From contig JBMNNJ010000002.1 of NCBI GenBank assembly GCA_050953885.1, forward strand, positions 41,586-105,585: a stretch of DNA of 64,000 bases, given 5' to 3'. Below the pieces are notes generated by a model. The model was not told where the DNA came from and searched no databases. It saw only the letters and a program-made list of their open reading frames with translations. The stretch comes from Patescibacteria group bacterium. Its GTDB lineage: Bacteria; Patescibacteriota; Microgenomatia; 0-14-0-10-38-17. Position 1 is the first letter of the stretch. Each line of letters starts with the position of its first letter. The position numbers and the translations under genes are program-made. Positions 27,798-49,400 of the stretch are shown one piece after another.

Positions 27798-28028
27798 GGT
27801 TAAGATACACGAATTTACACGAATGAGAAACGAATAGACACGAAAAATAAACTCAAAACGCAAATGGCAAAACTACATGGTAAATCTCAAACCACTTTAA
27901 AATGTAGTTTTTCAGATTTAAGTTTTGAGTTGTAGTTTTGATCCGCCAGCTGGCGGATTGCGATTTAACATTTGAGTTTATCTTTTGTCTCCTTGTATCT
28001 TAATATCTTAGTATCTTAGTATCTTTTC

Positions 28029-32053: not shown

Positions 32054-32459
32054 TTAAAACACGAATTTACACGAATAGGAAACGAATGAACGCGAACGAG
32101 CAAATAATATAAAAATAAATCAAATATCAAATATCAAAGCGCAAAACCAAGTTCAAAGACCAAAACCATAAACTCAATCCGCCAGCTGGCGGACAGAATC
32201 TAACTGATTCTGAATCAAGTTCAGAATGACACTAATCGTGACCGTCATTCTGACGAAAGTCAGAATCGAATAGCTAAAAGTTAAAATTCAAAAGTAAAAA
32301 TTAAAATTAAAAAGTAGAGCAAAAAAAACTTTTAACTTTTGACTTGCAATTTTGAATTTTGACTTTTTAATTTTGACTTTCCAAACCGATTTAGAAACGT
32401 ACACGTACCACCACCTATTTGGTATAAATTGCCACTGACGGACGATTCGTGAGCCTCCC

Positions 32460-33012: not shown

Positions 33013-33349
33013 AAGAAACTAAATTGTTAAATTGCTATACTGTTATACTGTTAAATTGTTAAAACACGAATTCACGCGAATTGGAAACGAATTAACACGA
33101 AAAATAAACTTAAAACGCAAATGGCAAATGGCAAAACTATCCACCTAAAATGGCGGATCCGCCGTCTGAGGCGGACATGTTAAATCTTAAATCTTTCTTA
33201 GAGCTTAAAAGTGTTTTTCAGATTTGAGTTTTGAATTTTAGTTTTGCGTTTTGCGATTTAACATTTGAGTTTATCTTTTGTTTTTGAATTTTGATTTTTG
33301 CATTAATTTAGTGTCTTAATATCTTTATATCCTAATTTCTCCCTCTTTG

Positions 33350-36083: not shown

Positions 36084-36240
36084 AAGGTTGGATATTAAAC
36101 ATTTATTTTTATTTATTAAGTAAGCACACGGGATTAAACAGGATGTTTACAGGATAAAACAGGAAAAAAATCCCGTTCAATCCTGTAATAAATCCTGTTG
36201 TATCCTGTGTGCTTTGCGCCCACCATTCGCTCATTCGTGT

Positions 36241-37959
36241 TCATTCGTTTCCCATTCGTGTCAATTCGTGTTTCCATTCGCCTATCTTCCTCACCACTTC
36301 ATTATATTGTAGTATTTCTACTTTCTCTTTGTCTCTTTCTTTATACTCTATTGAATCGCCTGTTTTTGGGGAGACAATCAAACGAACAGGAATGCCGACT
36401 AAATCCGCGTCGGCAAATTTTTCCCCCGCCGAAACCTCCCGACGATCATCATAAAGAACTTCAATGCCATCTTTTAAAAAACGGTCAAAAATTGCTTCCG
36501 CTTTTTCAAAAGCGCCTTCTAAGGCGATCAGATGAACCTGATAAGGAGCAATACTCTTAGGCCAAATAATTCCCTTTTTATCATGATGAATTTCTACCAC
36601 CGTGGCCATTGTTCGTCCCAACCCAATACCATAACAACCCATATAGAAAGGCTTTTCTTTGCCCTTTTTATCAATAAAATTCGCTCCTTTCATAAGACGG
36701 GTATAGTGATAACCAAGCTCAAAAATATGGCCCACTTCAATCCCTTTAATTTCCTGAAGTTTTCCTTGACGACATTGGGGGCAAAAATCACCCTCTCGCG
36801 CGCAAGTAATATCCGCCAGTAAAGAGTAGGAAAAATCTCGGCCGTAATTAACATTAACCGTGTCGGTTTTGGCTTCTTTTTGGCCGCCAATAAAATTTTT
36901 TACCATTTTTAAACCTAAATCGCCTACATAAACCACTCCTTGATGTCCCCAGGAATGAACCCAACCATGTTTAGTGCCTATTTTCTCTAAATCTTCTGCC
37001 GTTGCCGGTTCAAGGCTTTCCACCCCCAAAACTCGCTTCAGCTTTGCTTCGTTTACTTCCTGATCACCGCGCAGGGAAGCAATAATTATTCTTCCTTTCT
37101 CGTCTTTATAAACAACATTTTTCAAAAATCGCCAAAGCGGTTGGCGGTAATGCTTTACATTATCCTCCATGGTGCAAACCCATTCCGGCTGGGGAATAAT
37201 TTCTAAAGGTTTTTCTTCTTCGTCAGGATTAAGGGGCGCAAGATAGGCTTGCGCTTTCTCCAAACTGGCCTGATAAGAACATTGGCGGCATTTTAAAACC
37301 GCATCTTCTCCATTTTTATCAGGAACCACAAATTCATGGCAACGCTCGCCGCCAATATAACCGCTGTCAGCTTCAACTACCAAAAAAGGCAACTCTAAGC
37401 TCTGGAAAATTTTTTCATAAGCTTGCCAAAAAAACCGGTAGGTTTCGGCAAAATCTTTCTTATTTTGGTCAAAAGAATAAGCGTCTTTCATGATAAATTC
37501 CCGCACCCGCAACAGCCCGCCCCGAAAACGCCGTTCGTCACGAAATTTGGTGGAAAATTGGTAAAGAAAAAAAGGCAAATCTTTATAGGAAAGCTTTTTC
37601 CGGCGCACCAGATCCACAAACATTTCCTCCGCCGTTCCTCCTAAGGCAAATTCCGCTCCTGACCGGCTCTTAACCTTCATCAACTCAAAAGAAACTGACG
37701 TTGTCCTTTTCGTTTCCTGCCATAAAGAAAGAGGGTGTAAAATCGGGGTGATCATCTCCTGCGCCCCAATCGCCTCCATTTCTCTTCTGATTACTTCTTC
37801 TATTTTTTGATGGACGCGCCAACCTAAGGGAAGAAAATAATATTCTCCGGCTGAACTTTCCTCAATAAAGCCGCCGCGCCGTAAAAGCTGGTGGCTTGCC
37901 ACCACTGCCTTTTTAAACGGCTCCTTGCTGGTTTTGCCAAAAAGTTTTGAATAACGCAT
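36241..37959 (-). CDS. proS: prolyl-tRNA synthetase (bacterial type); its last 15 codons read through an ATTCG repeat module
   Basis: The 572 aa ORF has class II motifs and a ProRS N-terminus (MRYSKLFGKT..., FRDERRFRGGLLRVREFIMKDAYSF). The C-terminus KIGEWKHELTRMGNE is encoded by the repeat ...ccattcgtgtcaattcgtgtttcc. Confidence 0.9.
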   Translation of the reverse strand: MRYSKLFGKTSKEPFKKAVVASHQLLRRGGFIEESSAGEYYFLPLGWRVHQKIEEVIRREMEAIGAQEMITPILHPLSLWQETKRTTSVSFELMKVKSRSGAEFALGGTAEEMFVDLVRRKKLSYKDLPFFLYQFSTKFRDERRFRGGLLRVREFIMKDAYSFDQNKKDFAETYRFFWQAYEKIFQSLELPFLVVEADSGYIGGERCHEFVVPDKNGEDAVLKCRQCSYQASLEKAQAYLAPLNPDEEEKPLEIIPQPEWVCTMEDNVKHYRQPLWRFLKNVVYKDEKGRIIIASLRGDQEVNEAKLKRVLGVESLEPATAEDLEKIGTKHGWVHSWGHQGVVYVGDLGLKMVKNFIGGQKEAKTDTVNVNYGRDFSYSLLADITCAREGDFCPQCRQGKLQEIKGIEVGHIFELGYHYTRLMKGANFIDKKGKEKPFYMGCYGIGLGRTMATVVEIHHDKKGIIWPKSIAPYQVHLIALEGAFEKAEAIFDRFLKDGIEVLYDDRREVSAGEKFADADLVGIPVRLIVSPKTGDSIEYKERDKEKVEILQYNEVVRKIGEWKHELTRMGNE

Positions 37960-38029: not shown

Positions 38030-38175
38030 AAAGATAAACTCAAATGTTAAATCGCAAAACGCAAAACGACAACTCAAAACTCAAATCTAAAAAACAACTT
38101 TAAGCTTTAAAAAGTTTTAACATTTGCCATGTAGATTTGCCATTTGACATTTGCGTTTTGAGTTTATTTTTCGCG
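38030..38175. repeat. palindromic intergenic element, family 2 (core ctaaaaaacaactttaagctttaaaaagttttaacatttgccatgtag)
   Basis: It shares at least 60 nt of near-identity with the copies at 48196-48380 and, inverted, at 60500-60670. It is flanked by ATTCG modules. Confidence 0.6.
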
Positions 38176-38193: not shown

Positions 38194-39876
38194 CTACAGG
38201 CTAATATCTACCAAAAGCACCATCGGCCGCCGACCGGTAGTTTGGTAAAAAAGCTTTTCCAAAGAATCCTGAATAATCACCTTTAAATCTTGCCAGTCAA
38301 GCTTATTATTCTGAATTAAAATATTTTTAATCTCTTCCTTGGCACCGTTAAGAATTTCCCGACTGTCTTTTAGCTGTCCGTAAAGAAAGCCCCGACTCAC
38401 CAAAAGCGGTTCCATTAAAAGCGTTTTTTTAGTTTTATCTAAGGCCAAAATGGCCACCACCAAACCCTCGCGGGACAAAATTTCCCGATCGCGCAAAACC
38501 ACATTACCCACATCGCCCACTCCCAAACCGTCAACCAGCACTTCTCTAATCTCCATTTTGCCGTCAATTCTCGCCTGGCCGTCTTTTAGGCAAATAACAT
38601 CGTTTTCGTTTGGCAGAAGAACGCTTTGGGAGGAGTAACCCATTTTTTGGGCCAAAACCGCATATTGCTTCATTTGCCGGAAATTGCCGCCAATGGGAAG
38701 CAGGAATTTGGGCTTTACCAAATTAATAAGCAGGGCCAAATCGCCTTGGGCGCCATGGCCGGAAACATGCAAATCCTCGGAAATATCCATATAGGAAACC
38801 TCGGCTCCTTGTTTAATCAGATCGTCAATTAAAGCTTGAATCAGCGATTCATTGCCGGGAATATAATCGCTTGAGAAAACCACAAAGTCATTTTTCTCTA
38901 TCTTAAAATGAGGGTGCTGACCGGAAGTAATCCGATCCAGCGCCGAACCCACTTGAGCTTGGGAGCCGGCGACAATTAAGGTAAGGTTTTGGGGCAAAAA
39001 ATTCTTGGCCCGCTCCGGCTTAATTTCGCTTTCGGGAGGAAGATTAATGTAGCCAAACTGGCGGCCGATTTTCACCGCTTCCTTAACCGAGCGGCCCACC
39101 AAAACTATTTTGCGGCCAAATCGCCGCGAGGCATCAATGGCCGTTTTCAGACGGCTGATGTTGGAAGACATGGTGGTCACAATAAACCGCCCTTTGGCTT
39201 TTCTTATCTCCCGCTCAAAAATTTCCACCAAAGTTTGCTCCGAAGGGGTGTAGCCTTCTCTTTCCGCCCGCAAACAATCAGAAAGCATTAAATCCACCCC
39301 CAGGCGAGAAGCTTCCACCATTTTTTCTATCCCAATTTTGGTTTTGTCTACCGGTGTCCAGTCAAATTTAAAATCCGGACCATGATAAACATTGCCAAAA
39401 GGAGTTTTAATAAAAAGATGGCCCGCTTGGGGAATGGAGTGGGTAATGGGCAAAAGAGTAATTTTAAAATCACCCAAAATAATCTCTTTGCCAAAAGGCG
39501 CTTCCTGCAAATTAGCCGCCACCTCGGCCTCTTTCAGCTTTTCCCGCGCCAAGGCAAGCGTTAAAGGAGAACCAAAAACCGGCAAGTTAGGAAAATAGGG
39601 CAGAACATAGGGAAGCGCACCAATATGATCTTCATGGCCATGGGTAAGAAAAATACCTCTTATTTTATTCTTTTTTTTCTTAAGGTAGGTGATATCGGGA
39701 ATAATCAGGTCAATGCCAAACATTGTTTTCTCCGGAAAGCCAATGCCGCAGTCAACCACCAGAATATCCCGCGGGGTTTCGTAAACAAACATGTTCTGGG
39801 TAACCTTCCCAAACCCGCCTAAAGAAAAAATCCGCAGGCCTTCTCCCTTATTAGTATTATTTATAATATTGTTCAT
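38194..39876 (-). CDS. rnj: ribonuclease J (metallo-beta-lactamase/beta-CASP)
   Basis: The 560 aa ORF has the HGHEDH motif, beta-CASP motifs and a C-terminal domain typical of RNase J. Confidence 0.9.
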   Translation of the reverse strand: MNNIINNTNKGEGLRIFSLGGFGKVTQNMFVYETPRDILVVDCGIGFPEKTMFGIDLIIPDITYLKKKKNKIRGIFLTHGHEDHIGALPYVLPYFPNLPVFGSPLTLALAREKLKEAEVAANLQEAPFGKEIILGDFKITLLPITHSIPQAGHLFIKTPFGNVYHGPDFKFDWTPVDKTKIGIEKMVEASRLGVDLMLSDCLRAEREGYTPSEQTLVEIFEREIRKAKGRFIVTTMSSNISRLKTAIDASRRFGRKIVLVGRSVKEAVKIGRQFGYINLPPESEIKPERAKNFLPQNLTLIVAGSQAQVGSALDRITSGQHPHFKIEKNDFVVFSSDYIPGNESLIQALIDDLIKQGAEVSYMDISEDLHVSGHGAQGDLALLINLVKPKFLLPIGGNFRQMKQYAVLAQKMGYSSQSVLLPNENDVICLKDGQARIDGKMEIREVLVDGLGVGDVGNVVLRDREILSREGLVVAILALDKTKKTLLMEPLLVSRGFLYGQLKDSREILNGAKEEIKNILIQNNKLDWQDLKVIIQDSLEKLFYQTTGRRPMVLLVDISL

Positions 39877-39973: not shown

Positions 39974-40012
39974 ATTCGCGTCCATTCGTTTCCCATTCAC
40001 GTTAATTCGTGT

Positions 40013-40660
40013 TTAAACCAACCTTAACTGCTCCTCTTTTCCTTCTTGCTTAACAGTTGCTTGATCCCGGCCAAGGCTTTCTTTTTCTCCGTTCATTTTT
40101 TTCAAAAACTCTCCCAAGCGCCGAAAATCTTCTTCCTCCTCCCTCATTATTTTACCATTACGCAAAGCGGCCGCCGGATGATACATCGGCACCAAAACTA
40201 ACTCCTTGCCGCCAAAATCAATCAATCGCGGCCGACCATGAACTTGAGTAATTGAGGCGTTGGGGAGGAATTTGCCTAAGGAAAACCGTCCCAAGCTCAC
40301 CACCATTTGAGGGTTAATAACCTCAATCTGGTGATCCAAAAAAAACTGGCAGGCTTCAATTTCTTGAGGCTGGGGATCGCGGTTTTGGGGCGGGCGGTGC
40401 TTTAAAATATTGGCAATAAAAACTTTCTCTCTTTTTAAGCCCGCCTGGGCCAAAAGTTTGTCTAATAATTTGCCGGCGGCGCCGCAAAAAGGAATCCCCT
40501 TCTGATCCTCCCAAAATCCCGGCGCTTCGCCAATAAACATCACCTGGGCGTCACTGCTGCCTTCTCCGGGCACGGCTTGGGTGGCTTTCTGCCCTAACGG
40601 ACAGCGCCGACATTTCTTAATCTCCTCGGCAATTTGTAATAAGGCTTCTTGTTTGGTCAT
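40013..40660 (-). CDS. uracil-DNA glycosylase, family 4 (Fe-S type)
   Basis: The 215 aa ORF has CRRCPL near its N-terminus, the GEAPG motif, HPAA and additional Cys residues. Confidence 0.8.
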   Translation of the reverse strand: MTKQEALLQIAEEIKKCRRCPLGQKATQAVPGEGSSDAQVMFIGEAPGFWEDQKGIPFCGAAGKLLDKLLAQAGLKREKVFIANILKHRPPQNRDPQPQEIEACQFFLDHQIEVINPQMVVSLGRFSLGKFLPNASITQVHGRPRLIDFGGKELVLVPMYHPAAALRNGKIMREEEEDFRRLGEFLKKMNGEKESLGRDQATVKQEGKEEQLRLV

Positions 40661-40918
40661 AAAAAATAAATTACAAGTATATTACTCTCCTCATTTATTA
40701 TTACAATCTGACTCCGCCGATATAAAACGCGAAAATTAAATCAAAGAGTAAAGATCAAAGTGTAAAACCAAGTTCAAAAACCAAAACCAGAAGCTTAACA
40801 TTTTTGAACTTTGATTTAGGTTTTGATCTTTGATATTTGATTTTTGATTTATTTTTATATTATTCGCTCATTCGCGTCTATTCGTTTTCCATTCGTGTCA
40901 ATTCGTGTCGGCAGTTTT

Positions 40919-41971
40919 TCACCACATCGGCAAATATTCCTTCACATTCTCGGTGGTGATCTCAAATCTTTCCCCCTCGCCGCTGACCACTTTCTTGGCA
41001 ATCTGGCGGCAAATGCCCTCAAGATTGCGTTTTAGCGTCCGCACCCCGGCGTCATAGCCCAAGGGGCGAACAATTTTTGGCCAAACATCAGGGGTAAAAA
41101 CCACCTGTTGAGGTTCCAAACCCGCCTCGGCAATTGCCTCCGGCAGAAGATAATTTTTACCAATAATAATTTTTTCCTCGTCAGAATAAGAGGGCATCGA
41201 GATAATCTCTAAACGATCTAGCACTGCTTGGGAAATATTGGTGGTATTGTTGCAGGTGGTAATAAAAAACGCCTCGGACAAATCAAAAGGATAATCAATA
41301 AAATAATCGGTAAAGGCGTTGTTTTGCTCCGGGTCTAAAAGCTCCACCAACACCCCCATAATGGAACTACGCGCCTCCTCGGCAATCCGGTCAATTTCAT
41401 CTAAAAGAATAATCGGGTTAGCCGCTTTTGCCTGCCGTAAACCCTTAATAATTTGCCCGGGCTGGGCTTGAGGAAAAACCCGCGACCGACCGCGCAAATA
41501 AAAGGGCTCTTCAATGCCGCCGAAAGGAATTCTCACCATTTTTCTTCCTAAGGCTTCGGCAATCGCCGTTGCCAACGTTGTTTTCCCCGTTCCCACCAAG
41601 CCCACCAAACAAAGAATCGGCGCTCGCGGCTTTTCTCCCTTATCCTTCTTTAGCTTCATCACCGCCAAATATTCCAAAACCCGTTCCTTAATTTCTTCCA
41701 AGCCATAATGATACTTATCCAAAACTCTTCGCGCCTCGCCAAGATCCAAATTATCCTCGGTTTTTTCCCGCCACGGTAAATTCACAATCCACTCCACATA
41801 ATGGCTAATCGCCTCATATTCTTGGGAAAACTGGCCAAATTGGAGGGAAAGGCGCAACCTTTCTATTGCCAAAAGCGTTCTTGAAGAAAGATCGGCCGGT
41901 AAGGGAGCTTCCTTAACCTGTTTGGCTAACTTTTCAATTTCCTGGTCAACTTTGGGCTCGGCAGTTTTCAT
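40919..41971 (-). CDS. Lon-like AAA+ ATPase lacking the protease domain (truncated Lon, or stand-alone AAA+)
   Basis: The 350 aa ORF aligns to the Lon segment from ...DHYGL.evKeRIlEYLAV through Walker A (GLVGTGKTT), Walker B (ILLDEIDRI) and the sensor regions (YTREAGVR-like GYDAGVRTL). It ends at ...KEYLPMW and is followed by repeat modules and then the UDG gene. Confidence 0.75.
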   Translation of the reverse strand: MKTAEPKVDQEIEKLAKQVKEAPLPADLSSRTLLAIERLRLSLQFGQFSQEYEAISHYVEWIVNLPWREKTEDNLDLGEARRVLDKYHYGLEEIKERVLEYLAVMKLKKDKGEKPRAPILCLVGLVGTGKTTLATAIAEALGRKMVRIPFGGIEEPFYLRGRSRVFPQAQPGQIIKGLRQAKAANPIILLDEIDRIAEEARSSIMGVLVELLDPEQNNAFTDYFIDYPFDLSEAFFITTCNNTTNISQAVLDRLEIISMPSYSDEEKIIIGKNYLLPEAIAEAGLEPQQVVFTPDVWPKIVRPLGYDAGVRTLKRNLEGICRQIAKKVVSGEGERFEITTENVKEYLPMW

Positions 41972-42002: not shown

Positions 42003-44174
42003 TTATCTCCTCACCCGGCGCGAAGCATCTCCCCGACTGGAGCGCTCATAGCGCCCTCGCGGGGAAGAAAAATGACTTAAGCGGGGACGTTCTTGATGCT
42101 CTTGAGGCTGGTTTGATCCATCTAAAATCATCGTTAAATTAATTCTTCCCTGATCATCAATTTCCCGCACCTTCACTTGTACCTTCTGGCCTTCATGAAC
42201 CACCTCGGCCGGATCTTTCACAAAATGAGTCGCCATTTGGGAAACATGAACTAAGCCCTCTTTTTGAGGCAGAATTTCCACAAACGCCCCAAAAGGCCGA
42301 ATCCGTTTTACCACTCCTTCAAAAATTTCCCCCGCTTTCACTTCCCGGGTTAGGTTTTTAACCCAGTTAACGGCGCGGTTAACTTCTTCCCCATTTGTGC
42401 CGGAAATGCTTACCTCGCCATTATCCTCCACATTAACCTCGCAACCCGTTTCTTCAATAATCTGGCGAATAATTTTCCCTCCCGGCCCGATTAAACCGCC
42501 AATTTTTTCCGGATCAATTTTCACCAAGGCCACCTTAGGCGCGTACTGGGAAACTTTTTCTCGCGCTTGCGGCAAAACGGCCAGCATTTTTGCCAAAATT
42601 TCCTCGCGGGCTTTCTTCGCTCTTGCCAAAACCTCATCAATGGCCGCTAAAACCAGCCCTTCATTTTTAACATCCATTTGAATGGCCGTCACCCCATTTT
42701 TCGTGCCCGTTACCTTAAAGTCCATCTCGCCGTTAAAATCCTCAATGCCGGCAATATCGGTTAAAATCGTCCATTTTTCTTGCTTACTGGCCATCCCCAA
42801 AGCAATTCCCGCCACCGGCTCCTTAATAGGCACCCCGGCATCCATCAGGGCCAAAGTTGAACCGCAAGTTGAAGCCATCGAAGTAGAGCCGTCAGATGAA
42901 AGCACCTCGGAAACCACCCGAATGGCATAAGGAAAAACATCCTTACCCGGCAAAACCGGTTCCAGGGCCTTTTCCGCCAATGCCCCGTGGCCAATTTCCC
43001 GCCTTTTGGGACCGGAGATAAAAGCGATTTCTCCCGAAGCAAAAGGAAGCATTGAATAATGATGCATATAACGTTTTGTTTCCTCGCCCTCCGGGCTTTC
43101 AATCCATTGTTCTAAGGAAAGGGGGCCTAAAGTCGCGATGGATAATACTTGCGTTTTCCCGCGGGTAAAAATAGCGCTGCCGTGAGTCCGTGGCAAAACT
43201 CCCACCTCTGCCGTAATGGGACGAATCTCATCAATTTTTCTTCCGTCCGGCCGCTCGCCTTCCAAAAGCTTTCCTCTTAACCATTTCTTAACCGCTTTCT
43301 CAAAAGCCAAACGGACCTTAATTTTGTCTTCCTCGGCAAAAGATGCCAAAACCGCTTCTTTAAGCGGGCTTAAGGCAAATTCCTCGCCCTTTCTTGCTTT
43401 CTCCCAAGCTTCTTCCAAATCTTTCTTAATTTTTTGGCTAATCTCTTTCTCAAGTTCAGGCGAAGCGTAAGAAACATAGGCCATTTTTTCCTTCCCTATC
43501 TCTTGACGCATTTTTTCGATAAAGTCAAGCAACCGTTGGGCCTCCTTAAAACCAAATTCAATTCCCGCCACCACTTTCTTTTCCTCTACCTGATTGCCTT
43601 TAGCCTCAATCATCACCACTTTTTCCCGGGTACAAGAAATTACCAAGTTAAGATCGGAAAATTCTTCGTCACCAGCCACCGGATTAATAAAATAAGTGTC
43701 CTCTTTCATCCCCACTTCCACTGTGGTTATGGGCCCCAAGAAGGGAATGTTGGAAAAAGAAAGCGCCGCCGCCGAGGCCAACGAGGCTAAAACCACCGGA
43801 TCATTCTCGCCGTCAACCGAAAGAACCGTCACCGTCACCTGAACTTCATTTAAAAACCCTTCGGGGAAAAGAGGGCGCAGAGAGCGATCAATCAACCGCC
43901 CCGCTAAAATTGCCTCATCAGTGGGCCGGCCTTCCCGCTTCACCCACCGGCTACCCTTAATCCGGCCGCCGGCATAAAGACGCTCCATATATTCAACATC
44001 AAGAGGAAAATAATCAAGATTGGTTGGATGAGGAGAGGCCACCACCGTGGCCAAAACCGCCGTCTGGCCATAAGTGGCCCACACCGCCGCGTTTGCCTGA
44101 CCAGCGAAATCACCTACTTCCAGTTTAAGCGTTCGCCCGCCGATTTCGATTTCCCGACTAATTTTTTTGGTCAT
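42003..44174 (-). CDS. pnp: polynucleotide phosphorylase
   Basis: The 723 aa ORF has two RNase PH domains, KH and S1 domains, and an Arg-rich C-terminal tail. Confidence 0.95.
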   Translation of the reverse strand: MTKKISREIEIGGRTLKLEVGDFAGQANAAVWATYGQTAVLATVVASPHPTNLDYFPLDVEYMERLYAGGRIKGSRWVKREGRPTDEAILAGRLIDRSLRPLFPEGFLNEVQVTVTVLSVDGENDPVVLASLASAAALSFSNIPFLGPITTVEVGMKEDTYFINPVAGDEEFSDLNLVISCTREKVVMIEAKGNQVEEKKVVAGIEFGFKEAQRLLDFIEKMRQEIGKEKMAYVSYASPELEKEISQKIKKDLEEAWEKARKGEEFALSPLKEAVLASFAEEDKIKVRLAFEKAVKKWLRGKLLEGERPDGRKIDEIRPITAEVGVLPRTHGSAIFTRGKTQVLSIATLGPLSLEQWIESPEGEETKRYMHHYSMLPFASGEIAFISGPKRREIGHGALAEKALEPVLPGKDVFPYAIRVVSEVLSSDGSTSMASTCGSTLALMDAGVPIKEPVAGIALGMASKQEKWTILTDIAGIEDFNGEMDFKVTGTKNGVTAIQMDVKNEGLVLAAIDEVLARAKKAREEILAKMLAVLPQAREKVSQYAPKVALVKIDPEKIGGLIGPGGKIIRQIIEETGCEVNVEDNGEVSISGTNGEEVNRAVNWVKNLTREVKAGEIFEGVVKRIRPFGAFVEILPQKEGLVHVSQMATHFVKDPAEVVHEGQKVQVKVREIDDQGRINLTMILDGSNQPQEHQERPRLSHFSSPRGRYERSSRGDASRRVRR

Positions 44175-44446
44175 TCTTTACTTTTTAAAGATAATTTACT
44201 TGTTAAAGCCTGATAGCGCTCTTTATCATTTTGCGCCAAATAATTAAGCAAGCGTCTTCTTTTGGAAACCAAAGAGAGAAGCCCTCGCCGCGAGTGAACA
44301 TCCTTAGGGTTTTCCCCCAAGTGAGCCGCCAGCTTATCAATTTGGGCGGAAAGCAAGGCCACCTGAACCTCCGGAGAACCGGTGTCTTCCTTGTCGTGAG
44401 AAAACTCTTTGATAATTTTTTCCTTTTCTTCTTTGGTTAGGGCCAT
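44171..44446 (-). CDS. rpsO: 30S ribosomal protein S15
   Basis: The 91 aa ORF has S15 motifs (GSPEVQVALLSAQIDKLAAHL..., HSRRGLL) and overlaps the pnp start, as in the canonical rpsO-pnp arrangement. Confidence 0.95.
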   Translation of the reverse strand: MALTKEEKEKIIKEFSHDKEDTGSPEVQVALLSAQIDKLAAHLGENPKDVHSRRGLLSLVSKRRRLLNYLAQNDKERYQALTSKLSLKSKE

Positions 44447-44449
44447 TCT

Positions 44450-45900
44450 GCGCGGTTAAAAAATGAAGCCTTCTTTTCTTTTAAGAAGCCCAATTTTTAC
44501 TCCTTATTTTTTAAGCTTTTCTAAGTTTAACCTAAAATTCCCCAAAAAACAAGAGGGAAATGTGCGGTGTCCAGGACATGCTATACACTTCATGAGGTTT
44601 GGGTATGAGGAATATGTAAGAAGAGTGTTAAAATTGGTGGGTGTTAATTTTGAGAGTGTAGTAAAGGGGGTGAAAAAGCATGAGTCCTGGAATCCATGGA
44701 ATCCGGATAGACTACAAGGAATTAAGAAAGATTAATCCAGAAGCAGCCAGACAAACAGTGATTGAGTATCTAAAGACTAATGGCCACAACATTGCTGATA
44801 CCGCCAGGGTTTTTAGGGTCAACAGGACAGTGGTTTATGACATCTTGGCAAAAAGCAAAGAGGGCAATCTTAAAGACAGACCCAAGATACCAAAACACCA
44901 GCCCAACAAGACACCAGCCAAGACAGAAGGTAAAGTCATTAAGGCCAAGAACAAAACCCACCTGGGGCCAAAAAGATTATCACGCTACCTTGAGAAACAT
45001 GAAGGGATTCTTGTTCCTCCAGGAACAATCAGGCACATTCTAAGGAGGAATAAAGACAGGCTTACTTACAAACTAAAATCAAACAAGAGAAGAAAACAAC
45101 CAAGGGAGTTTGTTGACTGGTATTCAGCTAAACCTTTTGAGATTGTCCAAATGGATATCAAATTCATTAGGGATCAGAAAGCCCTGACTAAAAAGCAAAT
45201 TATTCATCTTAACCAATATGATATTCCCAACTATCAATGGGGAGCCCTGGATGTTAACTCTAGGTTTAAACTAATTGCTTATTCCAAGGAAAAATCTTGG
45301 ACTAATGGTTTGTGTTTTTACCTTTGGACTATTTCCTGGTTAAGGTCTCATGGGGTTAAATCAGAGATTGCCTTTACTGTTGATAATGGTGAGGAATTTG
45401 GGGGTAGATCCTGGTTGAAGGTCAAAGAGTTAAGAAAACTGATCAGGGGTTTTGGCTGTAGATTAATCCAGAACCACAAAGGTCATCCTGAGGAGAATGC
45501 TCATTTGGAAAGAAGCCATAGAACCGATGACGAAGAGTTCTACATTCCCAGGGTCCTACAGATTAAGAGCAAAAAAGATCTCTTGAATGAGGCCCTGGGT
45601 TACATTTATTACTACAACAATGTCCGGGAACACTCATCCTTAGACTATCAAATACCCTACCAATATCTGAAAATGCAATTACCAGAGATTGATGATAACA
45701 TACGTTATGTACAACCGATTATCCTTGATGATGTCTCGGTAAAACTAGGCCCTTGGAGTGGATACAATGTCTTGGCACATCACCGAAAAAAGAAAGCAAA
45801 AGAAATTCTCAACCCTCGCTTACGCCTGAACCACGATAAATTTTGGGAGGATTAAAGTTTGTGGCCGTTGGGGCCTGAGAAAAAGAAGGGAAACGGCCTC
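44450..45900 (+). mobile_element. IS element insertion between rpsO and the DHH-like gene (ends not mapped)
   Basis: An intact transposase interrupts the conserved nusA-infB-(rbfA)-rpsO-pnp gene string. The 3-prime end of the transposase overlaps the stop region of the adjacent minus-strand gene by about 47 nt. Confidence 0.55.
44680..45855 (+). CDS. DDE (integrase-core, rve-type) transposase with N-terminal HTH; IS family uncertain (IS481/IS30-like single-ORF type)
   Basis: The 391 aa ORF has an HTH (TVIEYLKTNGHNIADTARVF), a DDE triad context (QMDIKF, ALDVNSR, ENAHLERSH) and a C-terminal NNVREHSSLDY motif. It is the only long plus-strand gene in a minus-strand operon. Confidence 0.85.
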   Translation: MSPGIHGIRIDYKELRKINPEAARQTVIEYLKTNGHNIADTARVFRVNRTVVYDILAKSKEGNLKDRPKIPKHQPNKTPAKTEGKVIKAKNKTHLGPKRLSRYLEKHEGILVPPGTIRHILRRNKDRLTYKLKSNKRRKQPREFVDWYSAKPFEIVQMDIKFIRDQKALTKKQIIHLNQYDIPNYQWGALDVNSRFKLIAYSKEKSWTNGLCFYLWTISWLRSHGVKSEIAFTVDNGEEFGGRSWLKVKELRKLIRGFGCRLIQNHKGHPEENAHLERSHRTDDEEFYIPRVLQIKSKKDLLNEALGYIYYYNNVREHSSLDYQIPYQYLKMQLPEIDDNIRYVQPIILDDVSVKLGPWSGYNVLAHHRKKKAKEILNPRLRLNHDKFWED

Positions 45901-46624
45901 CCCGGCGCAGACAAAAAGCGGCCGCCTCAAAAGCATCGGGAGAAGTTTTGGGATCAGAAAAAGAATCCGTGGCCACCTTAAGCCCCAAAAGTAAATTGCT
46001 CGCCTCCTCCTCGCCCAAAGGCAAGGAAAGTCCTTCAGCCAAGGCGGCCACGATTTCCGCATAAGAGGAAGCGCCGCCGTCAACCACCTTCAGCTGGCCA
46101 AAAGTGGCCATTTCGTTAAGATTAATATTTAAAATTTCTAATTTATTAAGATCGGGCGGGGTAGGTAACAATTGCCGTAGAACTTTTTCCAACTCATTAA
46201 GATTATCAAAACCAAAGGCAATTAAGTTTTGAAGCTCGCCGCCGCGATTGGCAAAAGAAACCATTTGGGGGGTAATTGTCGGGGCGCCTGCTTTTGGCTG
46301 AATTAAGAGGCTTACTTTTCTCTCCCGATCGTCCCAGGAAATTTTTTCAATATAATCTAAAGAATAGTCGATATTGACCACAAAAATTTTACCCTTAATT
46401 TCCTCGCTCACTTTATCTATCCCATAAATTTGGCTAAACTCTACCTTAAGAGGCTCGGGGCTGATAACCGGTGCCGCCTTGCCGGCTTTTGTTAATGCCG
46501 CGGAAAGAGCGCAAGCGGCCGCCACCTGATCAAGCTTCGGTTGCGACGGCAAAAAAATCGGCGTTTCTTCCGCCCGCGCTAACCAAACGTTAACTTCGGC
46601 AAAAGGATAATTTCTCTTATTCAT
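45809..46624 (-). CDS. NrnA-like DHH-family protein with a degenerate DHH motif (probably not catalytic)
   Basis: The 271 aa ORF has an N-terminal region (IFLPSQPKLDQVAAACALSAALTKAGK) that aligns to the DHH motif region (H..PDGDA.GS.LAL). The His/Asp residues are replaced. It occupies the rbfA/nrnA slot after infB. Confidence 0.45.
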   Translation of the reverse strand: MNKRNYPFAEVNVWLARAEETPIFLPSQPKLDQVAAACALSAALTKAGKAAPVISPEPLKVEFSQIYGIDKVSEEIKGKIFVVNIDYSLDYIEKISWDDRERKVSLLIQPKAGAPTITPQMVSFANRGGELQNLIAFGFDNLNELEKVLRQLLPTPPDLNKLEILNINLNEMATFGQLKVVDGGASSYAEIVAALAEGLSLPLGEEEASNLLLGLKVATDSFSDPKTSPDAFEAAAFCLRRGGRFPSFSQAPTATNFNPPKIYRGSGVSEG

Positions 46625-46629
46625 AAAGC

Positions 46630-48075
46630 CTATATATTTTTCTTGTATCTTATCACATCACCAACAGCAAAATCAAGACGGGGAGAAAAGACAGCGCCAA
46701 ACTCTTCTTTTGCCTTGGCTTTTTCAATGTCTTTTTTTCCTTCGCGAAGCGAGATAATTTTTGCTTCCCCCACCTTTTCCTTGCCTCGCCAAAGCTCAAC
46801 TTCTCCCCCTTTAACAATTTCTCCCCGCAAAACCTTGCCGCCCGCCACCATTTCTCCTTCCACATTGAATTTGGCCAAAATGCTTACCTCTCCCAAAATA
46901 TTTGCCTCCTCTTTTTGGGAAGAAAATCTTTTTATCTCTTCCTCTAAAGCCTCACTTAATTCGTAAATTAAATTAAAACGCTGAATCTTTACCCTCTCTA
47001 CCTCGGCTATCTCCTCGACCCCTTTCCCGCAAGAAACATTGAAGCCAAAAATTTTACCGCCAAAAGAAGACGCTAAAACCACATCCGACTCATTAATCTC
47101 TCCCACCCCCGAGTCTAAAATTGCTAATTTAGAAACGATCGGCAAGTTTAAAATTGCTTCCAAAACCCCTAAGGTGTCGGCCTTAAAAATTACCGCCAAT
47201 TTTCCCTCCGTTTCTTCAACCACTAATCTATCTTTTTGAAGACTCAATTTTTCTTCTAATTCCGCCACCTTCTTATTACTTAAAACCTTCTCTCCCACCG
47301 GCACCACGGCGGAAAAACCCAAAACTAAAACTGGCTGGCTTACTTGCGCCTTTACAATTGAACCCCCCCGATCATCAAAAATCGCCTTTACCTTTGCTTT
47401 TTGATTACCCGCCCACACTTCATCGTCTTTCTTTAGTTCTCCTTCTTGAACTAATAAACTCACCTCCGCTCCCCGCTGCGGATTAACCCCGCTTTCAATC
47501 ACCACCCCCGAAAAGGGAGCGTTAACAGGCGCCTTAAGATCATTCATCTTTGTTAAAAGCAAAATCATTTCCAAAAGGTCTTCTATCCCCGCGCCGGTTT
47601 TGGCCGAAACCGGCACCATTACCACCTCGCCCCCCCGCTCTTCAACCAAAACCCCTAAGGCCGTTAGCTGATTTTTCACTTTTTCCGGATCAGCCCCGGC
47701 AAGATCCATTTTATTTAAAGCAATTAAAAAGGGAACATTGGCTTCCTGAATATGCCGCAACGACTCTTCGGTTTGGGGCATCACCCCTTCGTTGGCGGCA
47801 ATCACCAACACCGCCAAATCGGTAACTTGGGCCCCACGAGATCGCATGTTAGCAAAGACTTCATGACCGGGAGTATCAATAAAAGTAATCTTTTCGCCCT
47901 GATATTCAATTTGATAAGCGCCAATTTTTTGGGTAATACCGCCAATTTCTTTTTGACTAATATTAGTTTGGCGAATTTTATCCAAAAGTGAAGTTTTCCC
48001 GTGATCAATATGACCTAAAAAGGCGACTACCGGCGGGCGAGGAGAAAACTGCGGGGAATAATTTTTGTCGACCAT
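46630..48075 (-). CDS. infB: translation initiation factor IF-2, short form that starts at the G domain
   Basis: The 481 aa ORF starts with the G domain (VVAFLGHIDHGKTSLLD, DTPGHEVF, NKMD). It has domain II and a C-terminal beta-barrel but no N-terminal extension. Confidence 0.9.
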   Translation of the reverse strand: MVDKNYSPQFSPRPPVVAFLGHIDHGKTSLLDKIRQTNISQKEIGGITQKIGAYQIEYQGEKITFIDTPGHEVFANMRSRGAQVTDLAVLVIAANEGVMPQTEESLRHIQEANVPFLIALNKMDLAGADPEKVKNQLTALGVLVEERGGEVVMVPVSAKTGAGIEDLLEMILLLTKMNDLKAPVNAPFSGVVIESGVNPQRGAEVSLLVQEGELKKDDEVWAGNQKAKVKAIFDDRGGSIVKAQVSQPVLVLGFSAVVPVGEKVLSNKKVAELEEKLSLQKDRLVVEETEGKLAVIFKADTLGVLEAILNLPIVSKLAILDSGVGEINESDVVLASSFGGKIFGFNVSCGKGVEEIAEVERVKIQRFNLIYELSEALEEEIKRFSSQKEEANILGEVSILAKFNVEGEMVAGGKVLRGEIVKGGEVELWRGKEKVGEAKIISLREGKKDIEKAKAKEEFGAVFSPRLDFAVGDVIRYKKNI

Positions 48076-48195
48076 ATATAAAAAGTATTAAAAAATATCC
48101 CGCCATAGGCAAAAAAAATTTTTCTGGCTATTTTGTTAAATCGCAGAATTCTTTAAAAAATTCAAAATTCAAAATTTAAAAGTCAAAGATAACGA

Positions 48196-48380
48196 ATAAA
48201 CTCAAATCTCAAATCGCAAAACTCAAAACTACAACTCAAAACTCAAATCTAAAAAACAACTTTAAGCTTTAAAAAGTTTTAACATTTACCATGTAGTTTT
48301 GCCATTTGCCATTTGCGTTTTGAGTTTATTTTTCGTGTTTATTCGTTTCCTATTCGTGTTAATTCGTGTATCTTAACAAT
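48196..48380. repeat. palindromic intergenic element, family 2, second copy (infB-nusA spacer)
   Basis: Near-identical core to the copy at 38030-38175. Confidence 0.6.
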
Positions 48381-48398
48381 TTAACAGCTTATCCCTTT

Positions 48399-49400
48399 CT
48401 ATTTCTCCTTCTTTTTCTTTCCCCCTTCTCCCTCAATATCAATCTCATAACCGGTTAATTCGGAAGCCAGGCGTACATTTTGGCCATTTTTACCAATCGC
48501 CAGAGAAAGTTGGTCCTCGGGCGCCAAAACTTTTGCCCGTTTTTCTTTTTCATCAATTTCAATTTTCAAGTTTTCGGCCGGCAGAAGAGCCGCCTCAATC
48601 ATCTCTTGGGGATTATTACTATATTGGATCACGTCAATTTTTTCTCCCCCCAAACTGTTAATCACTTGAGTAACCCGGACTCCTTTCTGACCTACACAAG
48701 CTCCCACCGGATCCACATTGCGGCGTTTAGAATAAACAGCAATTTTAGTTCGCACCCCCGGTTCCCGCGCTATTGCTCTAATCTCCACCGTTCCATTGGC
48801 AATCTCGGGCACTTCTCGCCGAAAAAGCGCTTCCACCAATTCCCTCGTGGCGCGCGAGAGAATAATTCGCCGCTCCTCTCCTTCGCCGCTAATTTCTTTA
48901 ATATAAAAATCAAATTTCACCCCCGGTAGATAATCTTCTCCTTTTAACTGCTCGCTTGGGGGCAAAAACCCGTAAGTGCGGCCAATATCAATAATCGCCT
49001 GCTTCTGATAATCATCAAAGCGGATTACTGTTCCCTGCACCACGGTGCCGATTTTCCCCTGATAATCGTCAATCACCGCCATTTTTTCCGCCTCTCTTAC
49101 TTTCTGGATAATCACCTGCTTGGCCACCTGGGTGGCAATCCGGCCAAAACCAGGCGGGGTCACCTCTTCCTTGCCTTTCTTGCCTTTAATAAAAACTTTT
49201 GCCTCACCCGTCTTCTCGTCGATAATCACCTCATAATCGCCTTCCGGGGCAACACCATTTTTTTCCTGATAATCTTTTTCAAAAGCGGCTAAGATCGCCT
49301 CAATAATTGCCTCAATAATTGCCTCGGCGTCAATGTGGCGCTCCCGAGCCAGTTCTTCCACGGCAGTGGCAAACTCAGTTCGTTGTAATGTTCTTGGCAT
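48399..49400 (-). CDS. nusA: transcription termination/antitermination factor NusA (S1 + KH domains only)
   Basis: The 333 aa ORF has the NusA N-terminal domain, S1 and two KH motifs (VGACVGQKGVRV, IGKNGQNVRLAS). Confidence 0.9.
   Translation of the reverse strand: MPRTLQRTEFATAVEELARERHIDAEAIIEAIIEAILAAFEKDYQEKNGVAPEGDYEVIIDEKTGEAKVFIKGKKGKEEVTPPGFGRIATQVAKQVIIQKVREAEKMAVIDDYQGKIGTVVQGTVIRFDDYQKQAIIDIGRTYGFLPPSEQLKGEDYLPGVKFDFYIKEISGEGEERRIILSRATRELVEALFRREVPEIANGTVEIRAIAREPGVRTKIAVYSKRRNVDPVGACVGQKGVRVTQVINSLGGEKIDVIQYSNNPQEMIEAALLPAENLKIEIDEKEKRAKVLAPEDQLSLAIGKNGQNVRLASELTGYEIDIEGEGGKKKKEK

What the first reader, a model, noticed from the sequence alone, without database searches (positions are those of the whole stretch)
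40919..41971. Lon-type AAA+ module with no protease domain, ending abruptly at a repeat block
The 350 aa protein aligns with the Lon region from the end of the N-domain through the whole AAA+ module (Walker A GLVGTGKTT, Walker B LLDEIDRI, sensor 2). It stops at ...KEYLPMW, and the next 250 bp are ATTCG, CAAAAGT and CAAAG word modules, followed by an unrelated UDG gene. Either the protease domain was lost or disrupted by repeat insertion, leaving a pseudogene or gene fragment, or this is a stand-alone Lon-like ATPase acting as a chaperone or unfoldase.
Basis: partly seen in the sequence, partly recalled or inferred. Interest (0 to 1): 0.5.

Follow-up and report, generated by a model that had tools for sequence, protein, structure and literature searches.

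The report
Protease-less Lon-type ATPase of Microgenomates
This is an intact, strongly conserved gene for a Lon-derived ATPase that has no protease domain, found across a whole group of ultra-small (CPR) bacteria; it is not a gene broken by the repeats next to it, and its altered substrate-gripping loops suggest it no longer works like Lon.

Summary
The 350-aa ORF (40919..41971, minus strand) is real. It matches LonA only from the three-helix bundle through the AAA+ lid, so it lacks both the N-terminal substrate-binding domain and the S16 protease domain.

It is not a pseudogene:
- The identical protein is assembled in at least 4 independent samples.
- dN/dS against a 97%-identical relative is 0.036.
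- At least 594 species genomes (Shapiro-, Woese-, Gottesman-, Beckwith-, Chisholm- and Amesbacteria) encode 342-377-aa orthologues. 106 of 119 end on the same C-terminal Trp ([FY]LPxW).
- The orthologues sit in a conserved rpsO-pnp-lonAAA-(udg)-rnj-ftsK string, often with no spacer after the stop.

No protease or N-domain remnant was found in the window or in 0.9 Mb of related loci. All protease-less forms make one clade against 70 LonA (200/200 NJ bootstraps).

Walker A/B, sensor 1, Arg finger and sensor 2 are invariant. The pore-loop-1 Tyr, invariant in LonA, is R/Y/H/F/L here and is followed by Pro. The pore-loop-2 aromatic is lost.

The downstream repeat block is one of many lineage-specific intergenic modules (11 CGAAT arrays in the window) and is unrelated to the gene's end.

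Function is inferred: an ATP-driven hexameric remodeller, not a protease. Whether a Lon protease domain exists elsewhere in these genomes was not testable.

The parts
40919..41971 (-). lonAAA: complete CDS (350 aa plus stop) of a stand-alone LonA-derived AAA+ ATPase
   Evidence: ORF. Pfam AAA + Lon_lid. TIGR00763 model positions 252-570 only. Identical protein on 9 contigs from at least 4 samples. dN/dS 0.036.
41642..41971 (-). Residues 1-110: three-helix bundle (H5-21, H26-45, H48-63) plus linker helices. Equivalent to the C-terminal part of the LonA HI(CC) domain.
   Evidence: AF2 secondary structure. Alignment to EcLon from about residue 249. The 6n2i fragment 235-584 has the same boundaries (PMC6722904).
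41186..41641 (-). Residues 111-262: AAA+ alpha/beta nucleotide-binding subdomain
   Evidence: Pfam PF00004 at 120-257. AF2 strands and helices.
41576..41602 (-). Walker A GLVGTGKTT (residues 124-132). LonA has GPPGVGKTS.
   Evidence: Invariant in 119/119 family members.
41456..41494 (-). Pore loop 1, RGRSRVFPQAQPG (residues 160-172). The LonA motif RGHRRTY[IV]GA[ML]PG is remodelled. This protein has F166. Across the family that position is R/Y/H/F/L, followed by Pro.
   Evidence: Column counts for 119 short versus 70 full-length LonA. Role of the Tyr: PMC8503904.
41390..41413 (-). Walker B IILLDEID (residues 187-194)
   Evidence: D191 and E192 are 119/119.
41360..41386 (-). Pore loop 2 (residues 196-204, IAEEARSSI). 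The F/Y/W of LonA is replaced by G/A/S, and the GDP of LonA by S-[SD]-I.
41213..41251 (-). Sensor-1 N241 (41249-41251) and Arg finger R253 (41213-41215)
   Evidence: Both 119/119. EcLonA equivalents are N473 and R484 (PMC9569914).
40922..41185 (-). Residues 263-350: Lon-type lid (alpha-helical subdomain), including sensor-2 R311 (41039-41041)
   Evidence: Pfam PF22667 at 282-332. R311 is 119/119.
40922..40933 (-). C-terminal tail LPMW. The family motif is [FY]-L-P-x-W-COOH.
   Evidence: 106/119 members end on Trp and 6 on Tyr; 117/119 end at exactly this column. The LonA column there is D/E/A/K.
40862..40906 (-). CGAAT-word array (5 words, spacing 10, 11, 10, 8 in the sense of the gene), 13 nt after the stop codon. 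One of 11 copies in the window.
   Evidence: 0 expected by chance. Absent from 89 loci of other species. 116 metagenome stretches carry it.
40732..40856 (.). Imperfect palindrome of tandem ATCAAAG-type heptamers (arms 40732-40786 and 40802-40856, 75% complementary). Folds as a long AU-rich hairpin.
   Evidence: RNA fold of the whole spacer: -54.7 kcal/mol, z = -2.4.
42003..44174 (-). pnp (polynucleotide phosphorylase), 31 nt upstream of lonAAA. Conserved upstream neighbour.
   Evidence: Pfam RNase_PH x2, KH, S1. pnp is upstream on the same strand in 63/67 species loci, median gap about 44 nt.
44171..44446 (-). rpsO (ribosomal protein S15), head of the rpsO-pnp-lonAAA string
   Evidence: Ribosomal_S15 in the corresponding loci. 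Order conserved.
40013..40660 (-). UDG-superfamily glycosylase gene. Frequent but not universal downstream neighbour.
   Evidence: PF03167, E 5.5e-33. Gene-order counts.
38194..39876 (-). rnj (RNase J). Conserved downstream neighbour.
   Evidence: Pfam RNase_J_b_CASP, RNase_J_C, Lactamase_B. Downstream on the same strand in 67/71 species loci.

Best explanation
lonAAA is a functional, vertically inherited gene for a stand-alone AAA+ ATPase. It arose once from a LonA protease by clean loss of the N-terminal substrate-binding domain and of the C-terminal S16 protease domain. What remains is the three-helix bundle, the nucleotide-binding subdomain and the Lon-type lid.

Shown here:
- The gene is intact and under strong purifying selection.
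- It is conserved in length and in C-terminus across at least 594 species of the Microgenomates group and beyond.
- It is usually found 0-100 nt downstream of pnp, in the same orientation.
- The ATP-binding and hydrolysis residues are invariant, including the trans-acting Arg finger.
- The two substrate-gripping pore loops of LonA have lost their conserved aromatic residues.

Inferred:
- The protein assembles into a Lon-like hexamer that hydrolyses ATP at subunit interfaces.
- It cannot degrade anything itself.
- Pore loop 1 is x-P-[DQE]-A-E rather than T-Y-[IV]-G-A-[ML]. It therefore probably does not thread polypeptides processively. It more likely uses nucleotide-driven movements to bind, release or remodel a client or partner complex.
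- The invariant terminal Trp ([FY]LPxW-COOH) serves as a docking or packing element.

The 258-nt repeat block after the stop codon is an independent insertion of this lineage's ubiquitous intergenic repeat modules and has nothing to do with where the protein ends.
For: - Domain content: AAA + Lon_lid only; TIGR00763 positions 252-570 of 795.
- Structure: AF2 model pLDDT 88. Best reciprocal structural match is the EcLon 235-584 fragment 6n2i (TMq 0.88 / TMt 0.91, rmsd 2.2).
- Not an artefact: exact protein on 9 contigs from JGI 3300053716, 3300060679, 3300061563 and Logan SRR31128743.
- Selection: 76 synonymous versus 12 non-synonymous codon differences against L009; dN/dS 0.036.
- Family size: the best 120 homologues are all 342-364 aa apart from one 287-aa fragment (P0029). 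At least 594 species genomes carry the family-specific motifs. ORFs are 342-377 aa in 80 species loci.
- C-terminus: 117/119 end at the same column, 106 on Trp.
- Relatives have no spacer: L001 overlaps udg by 7 nt, L004 has a 10-nt gap.
- Single origin: 39 protease-less forms split from 70 LonA in 200/200 NJ bootstraps.
- ATPase motifs are 119/119. Pore-loop-1 Tyr is 70/70 in LonA versus R45 Y20 H20 F14 L10 V4 Q4 I1 here; the next residue is Pro in 108/119. The pore-loop-2 aromatic becomes G/A/S.
- Tyr397 and Trp431 contact substrate and are required for degradation in MtaLonA (PMC8503904).
- No Lon_C or Lon N-domain by tblastn in the window plus 11 loci (best E 0.11) or in 0.9 Mb from 80 species (none at E<1e-3).
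- Synteny: pnp upstream in 63/67, rnj downstream in 67/71.
Against: - No biochemical data exist. Hexamer formation, ATPase activity and the client are all inferred.
- In LonA the protease domain contributes strongly to ring assembly (my own knowledge). The isolated EcLon 235-584 fragment crystallises as an open helical hexamer rather than a closed ring (PMC6722904). Oligomerisation of a natural protease-less form is therefore not guaranteed.
- 34 of 119 members, including this one (F166), still have Tyr or Phe at the pore-loop-1 position. Some AAA+ rings engage substrate without aromatic loops, for example p97 D1 (my own knowledge). Threading is therefore not excluded.
- A partner protease encoded elsewhere in the genome was not testable.
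- The synteny with pnp and rnj is shared with functionally unrelated genes (udg, ftsK) and may only reflect a generally frozen gene order.
Confidence: 0.6

Rival explanations
1. Split Lon. The AAA+ ring still works as the unfoldase of a protease, but the S16 (or another) peptidase ring is encoded by a separate gene elsewhere in the genome. It docks in trans, possibly through the conserved C-terminal LPxW tail.
For: - ATPase motifs and the Arg finger are invariant.
- A strictly conserved terminal aromatic residue recalls the docking tails of other AAA+ protease activators such as HbYX or the HslU C-terminus (my own knowledge).
- 34/119 members retain Tyr or Phe in pore loop 1.
Against: - No Lon_C-like sequence in the 64-kb window, in 11 related loci, or within 6 kb either side in 80 species.
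- Neighbourhoods of divergent members show no conserved peptidase.
- The pore-loop aromatics needed to feed a protease are not conserved.
- Extensions in divergent members are low-complexity tails, not degenerate protease domains.
Confidence: 0.1
2. RNA-decay accessory motor. The ATPase has been recruited to the PNPase / RNase J machinery, remodelling RNA-protein substrates or the nucleases themselves. This would explain its fixed place between pnp and rnj.
For: - pnp lies upstream on the same strand in 63/67 species loci with a median gap of about 44 nt. rnj lies downstream in 67/71, directly adjacent in about 20.
- The pore-loop-1 position is most often Arg or His (65/119), as in nucleic-acid-translocating AAA+ rings (my own knowledge).
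- In E. coli the ATP-dependent helicase gene deaD lies just downstream of pnp (my own knowledge; analogy only).
Against: - The same string also keeps udg and ftsK in order, so the synteny may be non-specific.
- More divergent members (L013, L014) are not next to pnp or rnj.
- The pore loop also carries conserved Asp and Glu, which is unfavourable for binding a phosphate backbone.
- No RNA-binding domain was detected.
Confidence: 0.15
3. Pseudogene or gene fragment. A full-length lon was truncated by insertion of the repeat block, or by a frameshift or assembly error, and the ORF is decaying.
For: - The ORF ends 13 nt before a repeat array and lacks two of the LonA domains.
- JGI annotates homologues as 'ATP-dependent Lon protease'.
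Against: - dN/dS is 0.036.
- The identical ORF appears in independent assemblies.
- Orthologues of the same length and C-terminus occur in at least 594 species, many with no repeat block after the stop.
- No protease remnant in any frame.
- Catalytic ATPase residues are invariant.
Confidence: 0.01

Closest known systems
LonA protease (endopeptidase La; E. coli, B. subtilis, M. taiwanensis, human LONP1)
   Same: - 40-45% identity over the three-helix bundle, AAA+ alpha/beta subdomain and lid.
- Same fold.
- Same Walker A/B, sensor-1 Asn, Arg finger and sensor-2 Arg.
- The DPEQN...DLS segment is retained.
   Different: - No N-terminal LON substrate-binding domain and no S16 Ser-Lys protease domain.
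- The pore-loop-1 Tyr-[IV] and the pore-loop-2 aromatic are not conserved.
- Walker A flank is GLVGTGKTT rather than GPPGVGKTS, and DEIDR replaces DEIDK.
- A terminal Trp is added.
- Forms a separate clade.
EcLon(235-584) limited-proteolysis fragment (PDB 6N2I)
   Same: - Almost identical boundaries: query residues 10-348 align to 9-340 of the 344-residue chain.
- TMq 0.88 / TMt 0.91.
- Shows that this portion of LonA is a stable, nucleotide-binding unit that packs as a hexameric spiral (PMC6722904).
   Different: 6N2I is a laboratory fragment of a protease. The protein here is a natural, selected gene product with remodelled pore loops and a conserved C-terminal tail.
LonC (e.g. Meiothermus taiwanensis MtaLonC)
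   Same: A Lon-family member that has given up one half of the ATPase-protease partnership (PMC3391209 and PMC13069640, listed).
   Different: It is the mirror image. LonC keeps an active protease and has a dead ATPase module. This family keeps an apparently competent ATPase and has no protease.
Non-proteolytic members of the HCLR clade and protease-free AAA+ remodellers (RuvB, ClpB NBD2)
   Same: Hexameric AAA+ motors related to Lon that act without a fused protease. The LonA AAA+ module resembles ClpB NBD2 (PMC6722904).
   Different: No DNA-binding or middle domain was detected. Sequence affinity is clearly to LonA, not to RuvB or ClpB. ClpB keeps the aromatic pore loop (my own knowledge).

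Membership tests
LonA protease (MEROPS S16 / TIGR00763 endopeptidase La) | C-terminal S16 proteolytic domain with Ser-Lys dyad (PF05362) | tested here: not met
   No Pfam hit. The protein ends at the A-P linker, TIGR00763 position 570 of 795. tblastn with 12 LonA protease domains finds nothing below E 0.1 in the window or 11 loci, and nothing at E<1e-3 in 80 further loci.
LonA protease (MEROPS S16 / TIGR00763 endopeptidase La) | N-terminal LON substrate-binding domain (PF02190) | tested here: not met
   No Pfam hit. The alignment starts at model position 252. pnp ends 31 nt upstream, so there is no room for it. tblastn with N domains is negative.
LonA protease (MEROPS S16 / TIGR00763 endopeptidase La) | AAA+ module with Lon-type lid preceded by the HI(CC) three-helix bundle | tested here: met
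   PF00004 + PF22667. 3m6a E 1.7e-83. AF2 model matches LonA structures and 6n2i.
LonA protease (MEROPS S16 / TIGR00763 endopeptidase La) | Whole-protein score at or above the curated NCBIfam cutoff | tested here: not met
   334 bits against a cutoff of 608 for TIGR00763. 239 against 891 for NF008053.
LonA protease (MEROPS S16 / TIGR00763 endopeptidase La) | Conserved pore-loop-1 Tyr-[IV], and pore-loop-2 aromatic, used for substrate translocation | tested here: not met
   Tyr is 70/70 in LonA. In the family the position is R45 Y20 H20 F14 L10 V4 Q4 I1, followed by Pro in 108/119. The window protein has F166-P167. The pore-loop-2 aromatic becomes G/A/S.
Catalytically competent AAA+ ATPase | Walker A GxxGxGK[ST] and Walker B hhhhDE | tested here: met
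   GLVGTGKTT and IILLDE. K130, D191 and E192 are 119/119.
Catalytically competent AAA+ ATPase | Sensor-1 Asn, trans Arg finger, sensor-2 Arg | tested here: met
   N241, R253 and R311 are all 119/119 in the core family and 13/13 in divergent members. The EcLonA equivalents are N473, R484 and R542 (PMC9569914).
Catalytically competent AAA+ ATPase | Hexameric assembly and measurable ATP hydrolysis | not testable with these tools
   Only a monomer model could be predicted. There is no biochemistry.
Pseudogene / truncated gene fragment | Shorter than its orthologues, or a disrupted frame | tested here: not met
   Orthologues are 342-377 aa in 80 species. 117/119 end at the same column. The identical ORF appears in independent assemblies.
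Pseudogene / truncated gene fragment | Relaxed selection (dN/dS near 1) | tested here: not met
   dN 0.017, dS 0.47, ratio 0.036 against L009.
Anti-phage Lon-like proteins (BrxL and similar) | Significant match to a defence-system model | tested here: not met
   PADLOC gives only weak generic AAA hits (best is DolB, E 5.9e-07, 27 bits). There is no BrxL hit.

The most novel reading that the evidence does not exclude
In the Microgenomates lineage a Lon protease was converted, once, into a non-proteolytic hexameric motor. It now serves the RNA-degradation machinery. It is co-transcribed with pnp and rnj, and it would dock through its invariant C-terminal LPxW tail onto the pseudo-hexameric PNPase ring (or onto RNase J). 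In these minimal cells it would take the place that DEAD-box helicases hold in other degradosomes.
Probability: 0.1. Interest if true: 0.8.

Novelty: new variant of a known kind. Interest (0 to 1): 0.5.

Why it matters
Every described Lon subfamily (A, B, C, BA) is defined as a single chain carrying both an ATPase and a protease domain (PMC9569914).

This locus is an example of a large, monophyletic clade under purifying selection that keeps only the ATPase half. The clade spans at least 594 species. It has an intact catalytic site, remodelled pore loops and a new conserved C-terminal tail.

Three things follow:
- Current 'ATP-dependent Lon protease' annotations for these CPR genes are wrong. 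Counts of Lon in CPR genomes may be inflated by them.
- The family is a natural experiment on what a Lon motor does once it is uncoupled from proteolysis.
- Its fixed position between pnp and rnj gives a concrete, testable lead to its function in organisms with very small proteomes.

It is not a solution to a long-standing question, so the interest is moderate.

Tried and rejected
- **Remnant domains.** tblastn with 12 LonA protease domains and 12 N domains found no remnant downstream or anywhere else in the window plus 11 loci, or in 80 species loci. Direct translation of the spacer shows many stops.
- **Extensions in divergent members.** The extra N- or C-terminal stretches of divergent members (P0139, P0142, P0143, P0151, P0158, P0160) were checked as possible degenerate Lon domains. 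Pfam finds nothing, and the sequences are Q/P/S/N-rich low-complexity tails.
- **Anti-phage role.** PADLOC gives only weak generic AAA hits.
- **Known RNA in the repeat block.** Rfam at gathering threshold finds only a tRNA at 62337-62408 in the whole window.
- **Canonical terminator or promoter in the spacer.** No intrinsic-terminator-like site. One weak promoter-like site on the gene strand (40726-40697), at about background frequency.
- **Contig for P0003.** The look-up for the 90%-identical homologue failed; it is not on record.
- **Biopython NJ with bootstraps.** It timed out and was replaced by a numpy NJ.
- **Literature.** Searches for a protease-less Lon in CPR/Patescibacteria returned nothing relevant.
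- **Second transposase copy.** A suspected transposase remnant near 49.4-50.2 kb was not supported by tblastn with the 44680-45855 transposase.
- **Full Lon elsewhere.** No available tool can scan a specific complete genome, so I could not test whether the same genomes carry a full-length Lon or a separate S16 peptidase.
Full report
**1. Observation**

- Pfam finds AAA (residues 120-257) and the Lon-specific lid (282-332).
- The NCBIfam LonA model TIGR00763 aligns residues 9-334 to model positions 252-570 of 795, scoring 334 bits against a cutoff of 608.
- The best solved relatives are LonA proteases (B. subtilis 3m6a, E 1.7e-83) and the isolated E. coli fragment 6n2i.

So the protein corresponds to LonA from the last three helices of the HI(CC) region through the AAA+ lid. 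It also lacks the N-terminal substrate-binding domain: pnp ends only 31 nt upstream.

The 258-nt spacer that follows is made of repeats. A UDG-superfamily gene comes next.

**2. It is not a pseudogene, a fragment or an assembly artefact**

- The identical protein is encoded on 9 contigs from at least four independent samples.
- Against a relative whose protein is 97% identical (L009) there are 76 synonymous but only 12 non-synonymous codon differences: dN 0.017, dS 0.47, ratio 0.036.
- Of the best 120 homologues in a 5.8-billion-protein collection, 119 are 342-364 aa (57-97% identity). The exception, P0029, is a 287-aa fragment.
They come from Shapiro-, Woese-, Gottesman-, Beckwith-, Chisholm- and Amesbacteria and unnamed Microgenomates/Patescibacteria (lineage).
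- Several MAG titles in that list say 'Gammaproteobacteria', 'Bathyarchaeia' or 'Clostridia'. These loci carry the same gene string, so I regard the titles as placeholders or binning errors.
- In the 80 best loci the ORF is 342-377 aa.
- 117 of 119 homologues end at exactly the same alignment column, 106 of them on Trp.
- In relatives the next gene starts 0-10 nt after the stop or overlaps it: L001 has a 7-nt overlap with udg and L004 a 10-nt gap. The C-terminus therefore does not depend on the repeat block.
- tblastn with twelve LonA protease domains and twelve N domains found nothing better than E 0.1 in the window and 11 loci. It found nothing at E<1e-3 in 0.9 Mb from 80 species.
- The spacer is full of stops in the gene's frame.

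**3. Anatomy**

An AlphaFold2 model (pLDDT 88, pTM 0.78) shows:
- three N-terminal helices (5-21, 26-45, 48-63);
- two linker helices;
- the alpha/beta nucleotide-binding subdomain (about 111-262);
- the helical lid (263-350).

Foldseek against the PDB returns only LonA/LONP1 chains. The best reciprocal match is 6n2i, the limited-proteolysis fragment EcLon(235-584), with TMq 0.88, TMt 0.91 and rmsd 2.2 A. That fragment is a stable ADP-binding unit that packs as an open hexameric spiral (PMC6722904). The natural protein is in effect that fragment.

**4. Family and origin**

A search of 1.84 billion cluster representatives shows further protease-less relatives of 351-669 aa at 43-56% identity. 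Full-length LonA follows at about 40-45%.
- The ten protease-less relatives scanned contain only AAA + Lon_lid.
- Their extra N- or C-terminal stretches are Q/P/S/N-rich low-complexity tails, not degenerate Lon domains.
- One is from Dojkabacteria, so the clade reaches beyond the Microgenomates group.
- In an NJ tree of the shared 338 columns, all 39 sampled protease-less proteins separate from 70 full-length LonA in 200 of 200 bootstraps. This indicates a single ancient loss.

**5. What is kept and what is changed** (119 core members, 13 divergent members, 70 LonA)

Kept without exception:
- Walker A Lys;
- Walker B Asp-Glu;
- sensor-1 Asn241;
- Arg finger R253;
- sensor-2 R311.

These are the EcLonA equivalents N473, R484 and R542 (PMC9569914).

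Changed:

| Element | LonA | This family |
|---|---|---|
| Pore loop 1 motif | R-G-H-R-R-T-Y-[IV]-G-A-[ML]-P-G, Tyr 70/70 | R-G-Q-S-R-x-x-P-[DQE]-A-E-P-G |
| Former Tyr position | Tyr | R45 Y20 H20 F14 L10 V4 Q4 I1 |
| Next residue | I or V | Pro, 108/119 |
| [ML] position | Met or Leu | Glu, 116/119 |
| Pore-loop-2 aromatic | F/Y/W | G/A/S |
| Motif after pore loop 2 | G-D-P | S-[SD]-I |

The window protein itself has F166-P167. Divergent members show the same degeneration.

In MtaLonA, Tyr397 and Trp431 contact the substrate and are required for degradation (PMC8503904).

A family-specific gain is the C-terminal [FY]-L-P-x-W-COOH. The LonA column aligned to the Trp is D/E/A/K.

**6. Context**

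The gene lies in the string rpsO-pnp-lonAAA-(udg)-rnj-(proS)-ftsK.
- pnp is upstream on the same strand in 63 of 67 loci that have enough flank. The median gap is about 44 nt.
- rnj is downstream in 67 of 71, directly adjacent in about 20.
- This is compatible with co-transcription with pnp. However, functionally unrelated genes (udg, ftsK) are equally fixed in order, so the linkage is suggestive only.
- In more divergent members the string is loosened (L012) or absent (L013, L014), and no peptidase is a conserved neighbour.
- PADLOC gives no defence-system assignment.

**7. The repeat block**

The spacer 40661-40918 consists of two modules.
- A 45-nt array of five CGAAT words with fixed spacing begins 13 nt after the stop.
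- A palindrome with 55-nt arms is built of tandem ATCAAAG-type heptamers. It folds as a long AU-rich hairpin.

Neither module is special to this gene.
- The four-word core of the array occurs 11 times in the window, with 0 expected by chance. All but the 27810 copy, which lies within the listed 27084-27863 ORF, are between ORFs, often just 3' of a minus-strand gene. One copy lies right after udg.
- Heptamer palindromes and several other word modules fill most spacers of the window.
- The array is absent from 89 loci of other species.
- It is present in 116 metagenome stretches.
- In the 97% relative L009 the array after the stop is conserved, but the palindrome is built from a different word, ACAGGAT. 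Modules are therefore exchanged between strains.
- Tandem-repeat density here is 21.7 rows per 10 kb and 4.8% of bases. That is four times the median of 80 related loci, although a few loci match it.

'Ending abruptly at a repeat block' is therefore simply how genes end in this genome.

**8. Mechanism and rivals**

Best-supported reading (confidence 0.6):
- The protein is a functional, non-proteolytic, LonA-derived AAA+ ATPase that acts as a ring with inter-subunit ATP sites. This part is near certain as to being a real, selected, stand-alone ATPase gene.
- It probably does not thread polypeptides, because its pore loops have lost the conserved aromatics. It more likely acts as an ATP-driven remodeller or switch on a client or partner.
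- The terminal Trp would serve as a docking or packing element. This part is inference.

Rivals:
- A split Lon whose peptidase is encoded elsewhere (0.1).
- An accessory motor of the PNPase / RNase J RNA-decay machinery (0.15).
- A pseudogene or artefact (0.01 or less; refuted).

**9. Comparison and novelty**

All described Lon subfamilies contain both an ATPase and a protease domain (PMC9569914).
- This family fails the membership tests for LonA on four counts: protease domain, N domain, curated score, and pore-loop Tyr.
- It passes the tests for a catalytically competent AAA+ module.
- It mirrors LonC, which keeps the protease and has a dead ATPase.
- Public annotations call the proteins 'AAA family ATPase' or, wrongly, 'ATP-dependent Lon protease'.
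- I found no paper describing them.

I rate it a new variant of a known kind, of moderate interest.

**10. Limits**

- No tool here can scan a chosen complete genome, so the presence of a full-length Lon or a separate S16 peptidase elsewhere in these organisms is untested.
- Oligomeric state, ATPase activity and clients are untested.
- The NJ tree is a quick distance analysis.
- dN/dS rests on one close pair.

Noticed in passing
window, most intergenic spacers: CGAAT arrays at 2491-2526, 4134-4169, 27029-27064, 27810-27845, 32062-32097, 33067-33102, 36233-36268, 39974-40009, 40870-40905, 48331-48366, 56624-56659: A roughly 45-nt array of CGAAT words with fixed 10/11/10/8 spacing occurs 11 times in 64 kb (0 expected by chance). 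All but the 27810 copy, which lies within the listed 27084-27863 ORF, fall between ORFs, often just 3' of a minus-strand gene. It is absent from 89 loci of other Microgenomates species. It is present in 116 metagenome stretches, mostly short contigs. Its function is unknown: terminator or processing site, protein-binding array, or selfish element.
   Followed up: partly
window 1150-1310, 3262-3310, 4184-4233, 5889-5934, 7642-7695, 12038-12300, 12752-12957, 32275-32380, 33215-33304, 38049-38154, 40732-40856, 48157-48316, 58799-58986, 60513-60660: Long imperfect palindromes built from tandem 7-nt words (TCAAAAG, CAAAACG, CAAATGG, ATCAAAG). They sit alongside other word modules: ACAGGAT palindromes at about 26900-27010 and 36100-36220, CCGCCAGCTGGCGGA hairpins, 'attctgactttcgtcagaat' hairpins, and AAATTGCT/AACAATGT 8-mer arrays. 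They even sit between ribosomal-protein genes at 1-8100. In the 97% relative L009 the palindrome after lonAAA is of a different word type, so modules are swapped between strains. Tandem-repeat density is 4x the median of 80 related loci.
   Followed up: partly
window 20419-20431, 22786-22798, 24957-24969 (minus-strand sense GAGGTGTAAATAG); variant at 60376 (+): A shared motif...CCAGAGGTGTAAATAG...CACCTCTAAGGT..., can form a hairpin. It recurs in the 5' spacers of at least three consecutive minus-strand genes and one plus-strand gene. It may be a common leader or regulatory RNA element. There is no Rfam hit at gathering threshold.
   Followed up: no
window 44680-45855 (+): A 391-aa integrase-core (rve_3) transposase is the only plus-strand gene in a long run of minus-strand genes. 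It is inserted in the nusA-infB-...-rpsO-pnp string just upstream of rpsO. Relatives at 62-73% identity (L001, L004, L010) have no gene there. It is a single copy in the window.
   Followed up: partly
L005 (JGI 3300053716 contig Ga0534105_01174) compared with window 42003-44174 and 46630-49400: In this public assembly of the same organism, pnp is called as three pieces (502 + 168 + 81 aa), and nusA and infB are truncated. In the window pnp is a single 723-aa ORF, and the infB- and nusA-position ORFs are 481 and 333 aa. That contig probably contains frameshift errors. lonAAA is intact in both.
   Followed up: no
window 45809-46624 (-); L001 6257-7084; L004 6809-7603; L010 1851-2660: A conserved protein of about 270 aa with no Pfam hit on record sits between infB and rpsO. 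This is the position held by rbfA/truB in the classical operon (my own knowledge). It may be a divergent TruB or RibF-like protein, or a lineage-specific one.
   Followed up: no
L019, L021, L022, L037, L066 and others (record titles): Many species-representative MAGs carrying this Microgenomates-type gene string are titled 'uncultured Gammaproteobacteria', 'Pseudomonadales', 'Bathyarchaeia archaeon' or 'Clostridia bacterium'. These titles look like placeholders or mis-binned contigs.
   Followed up: no
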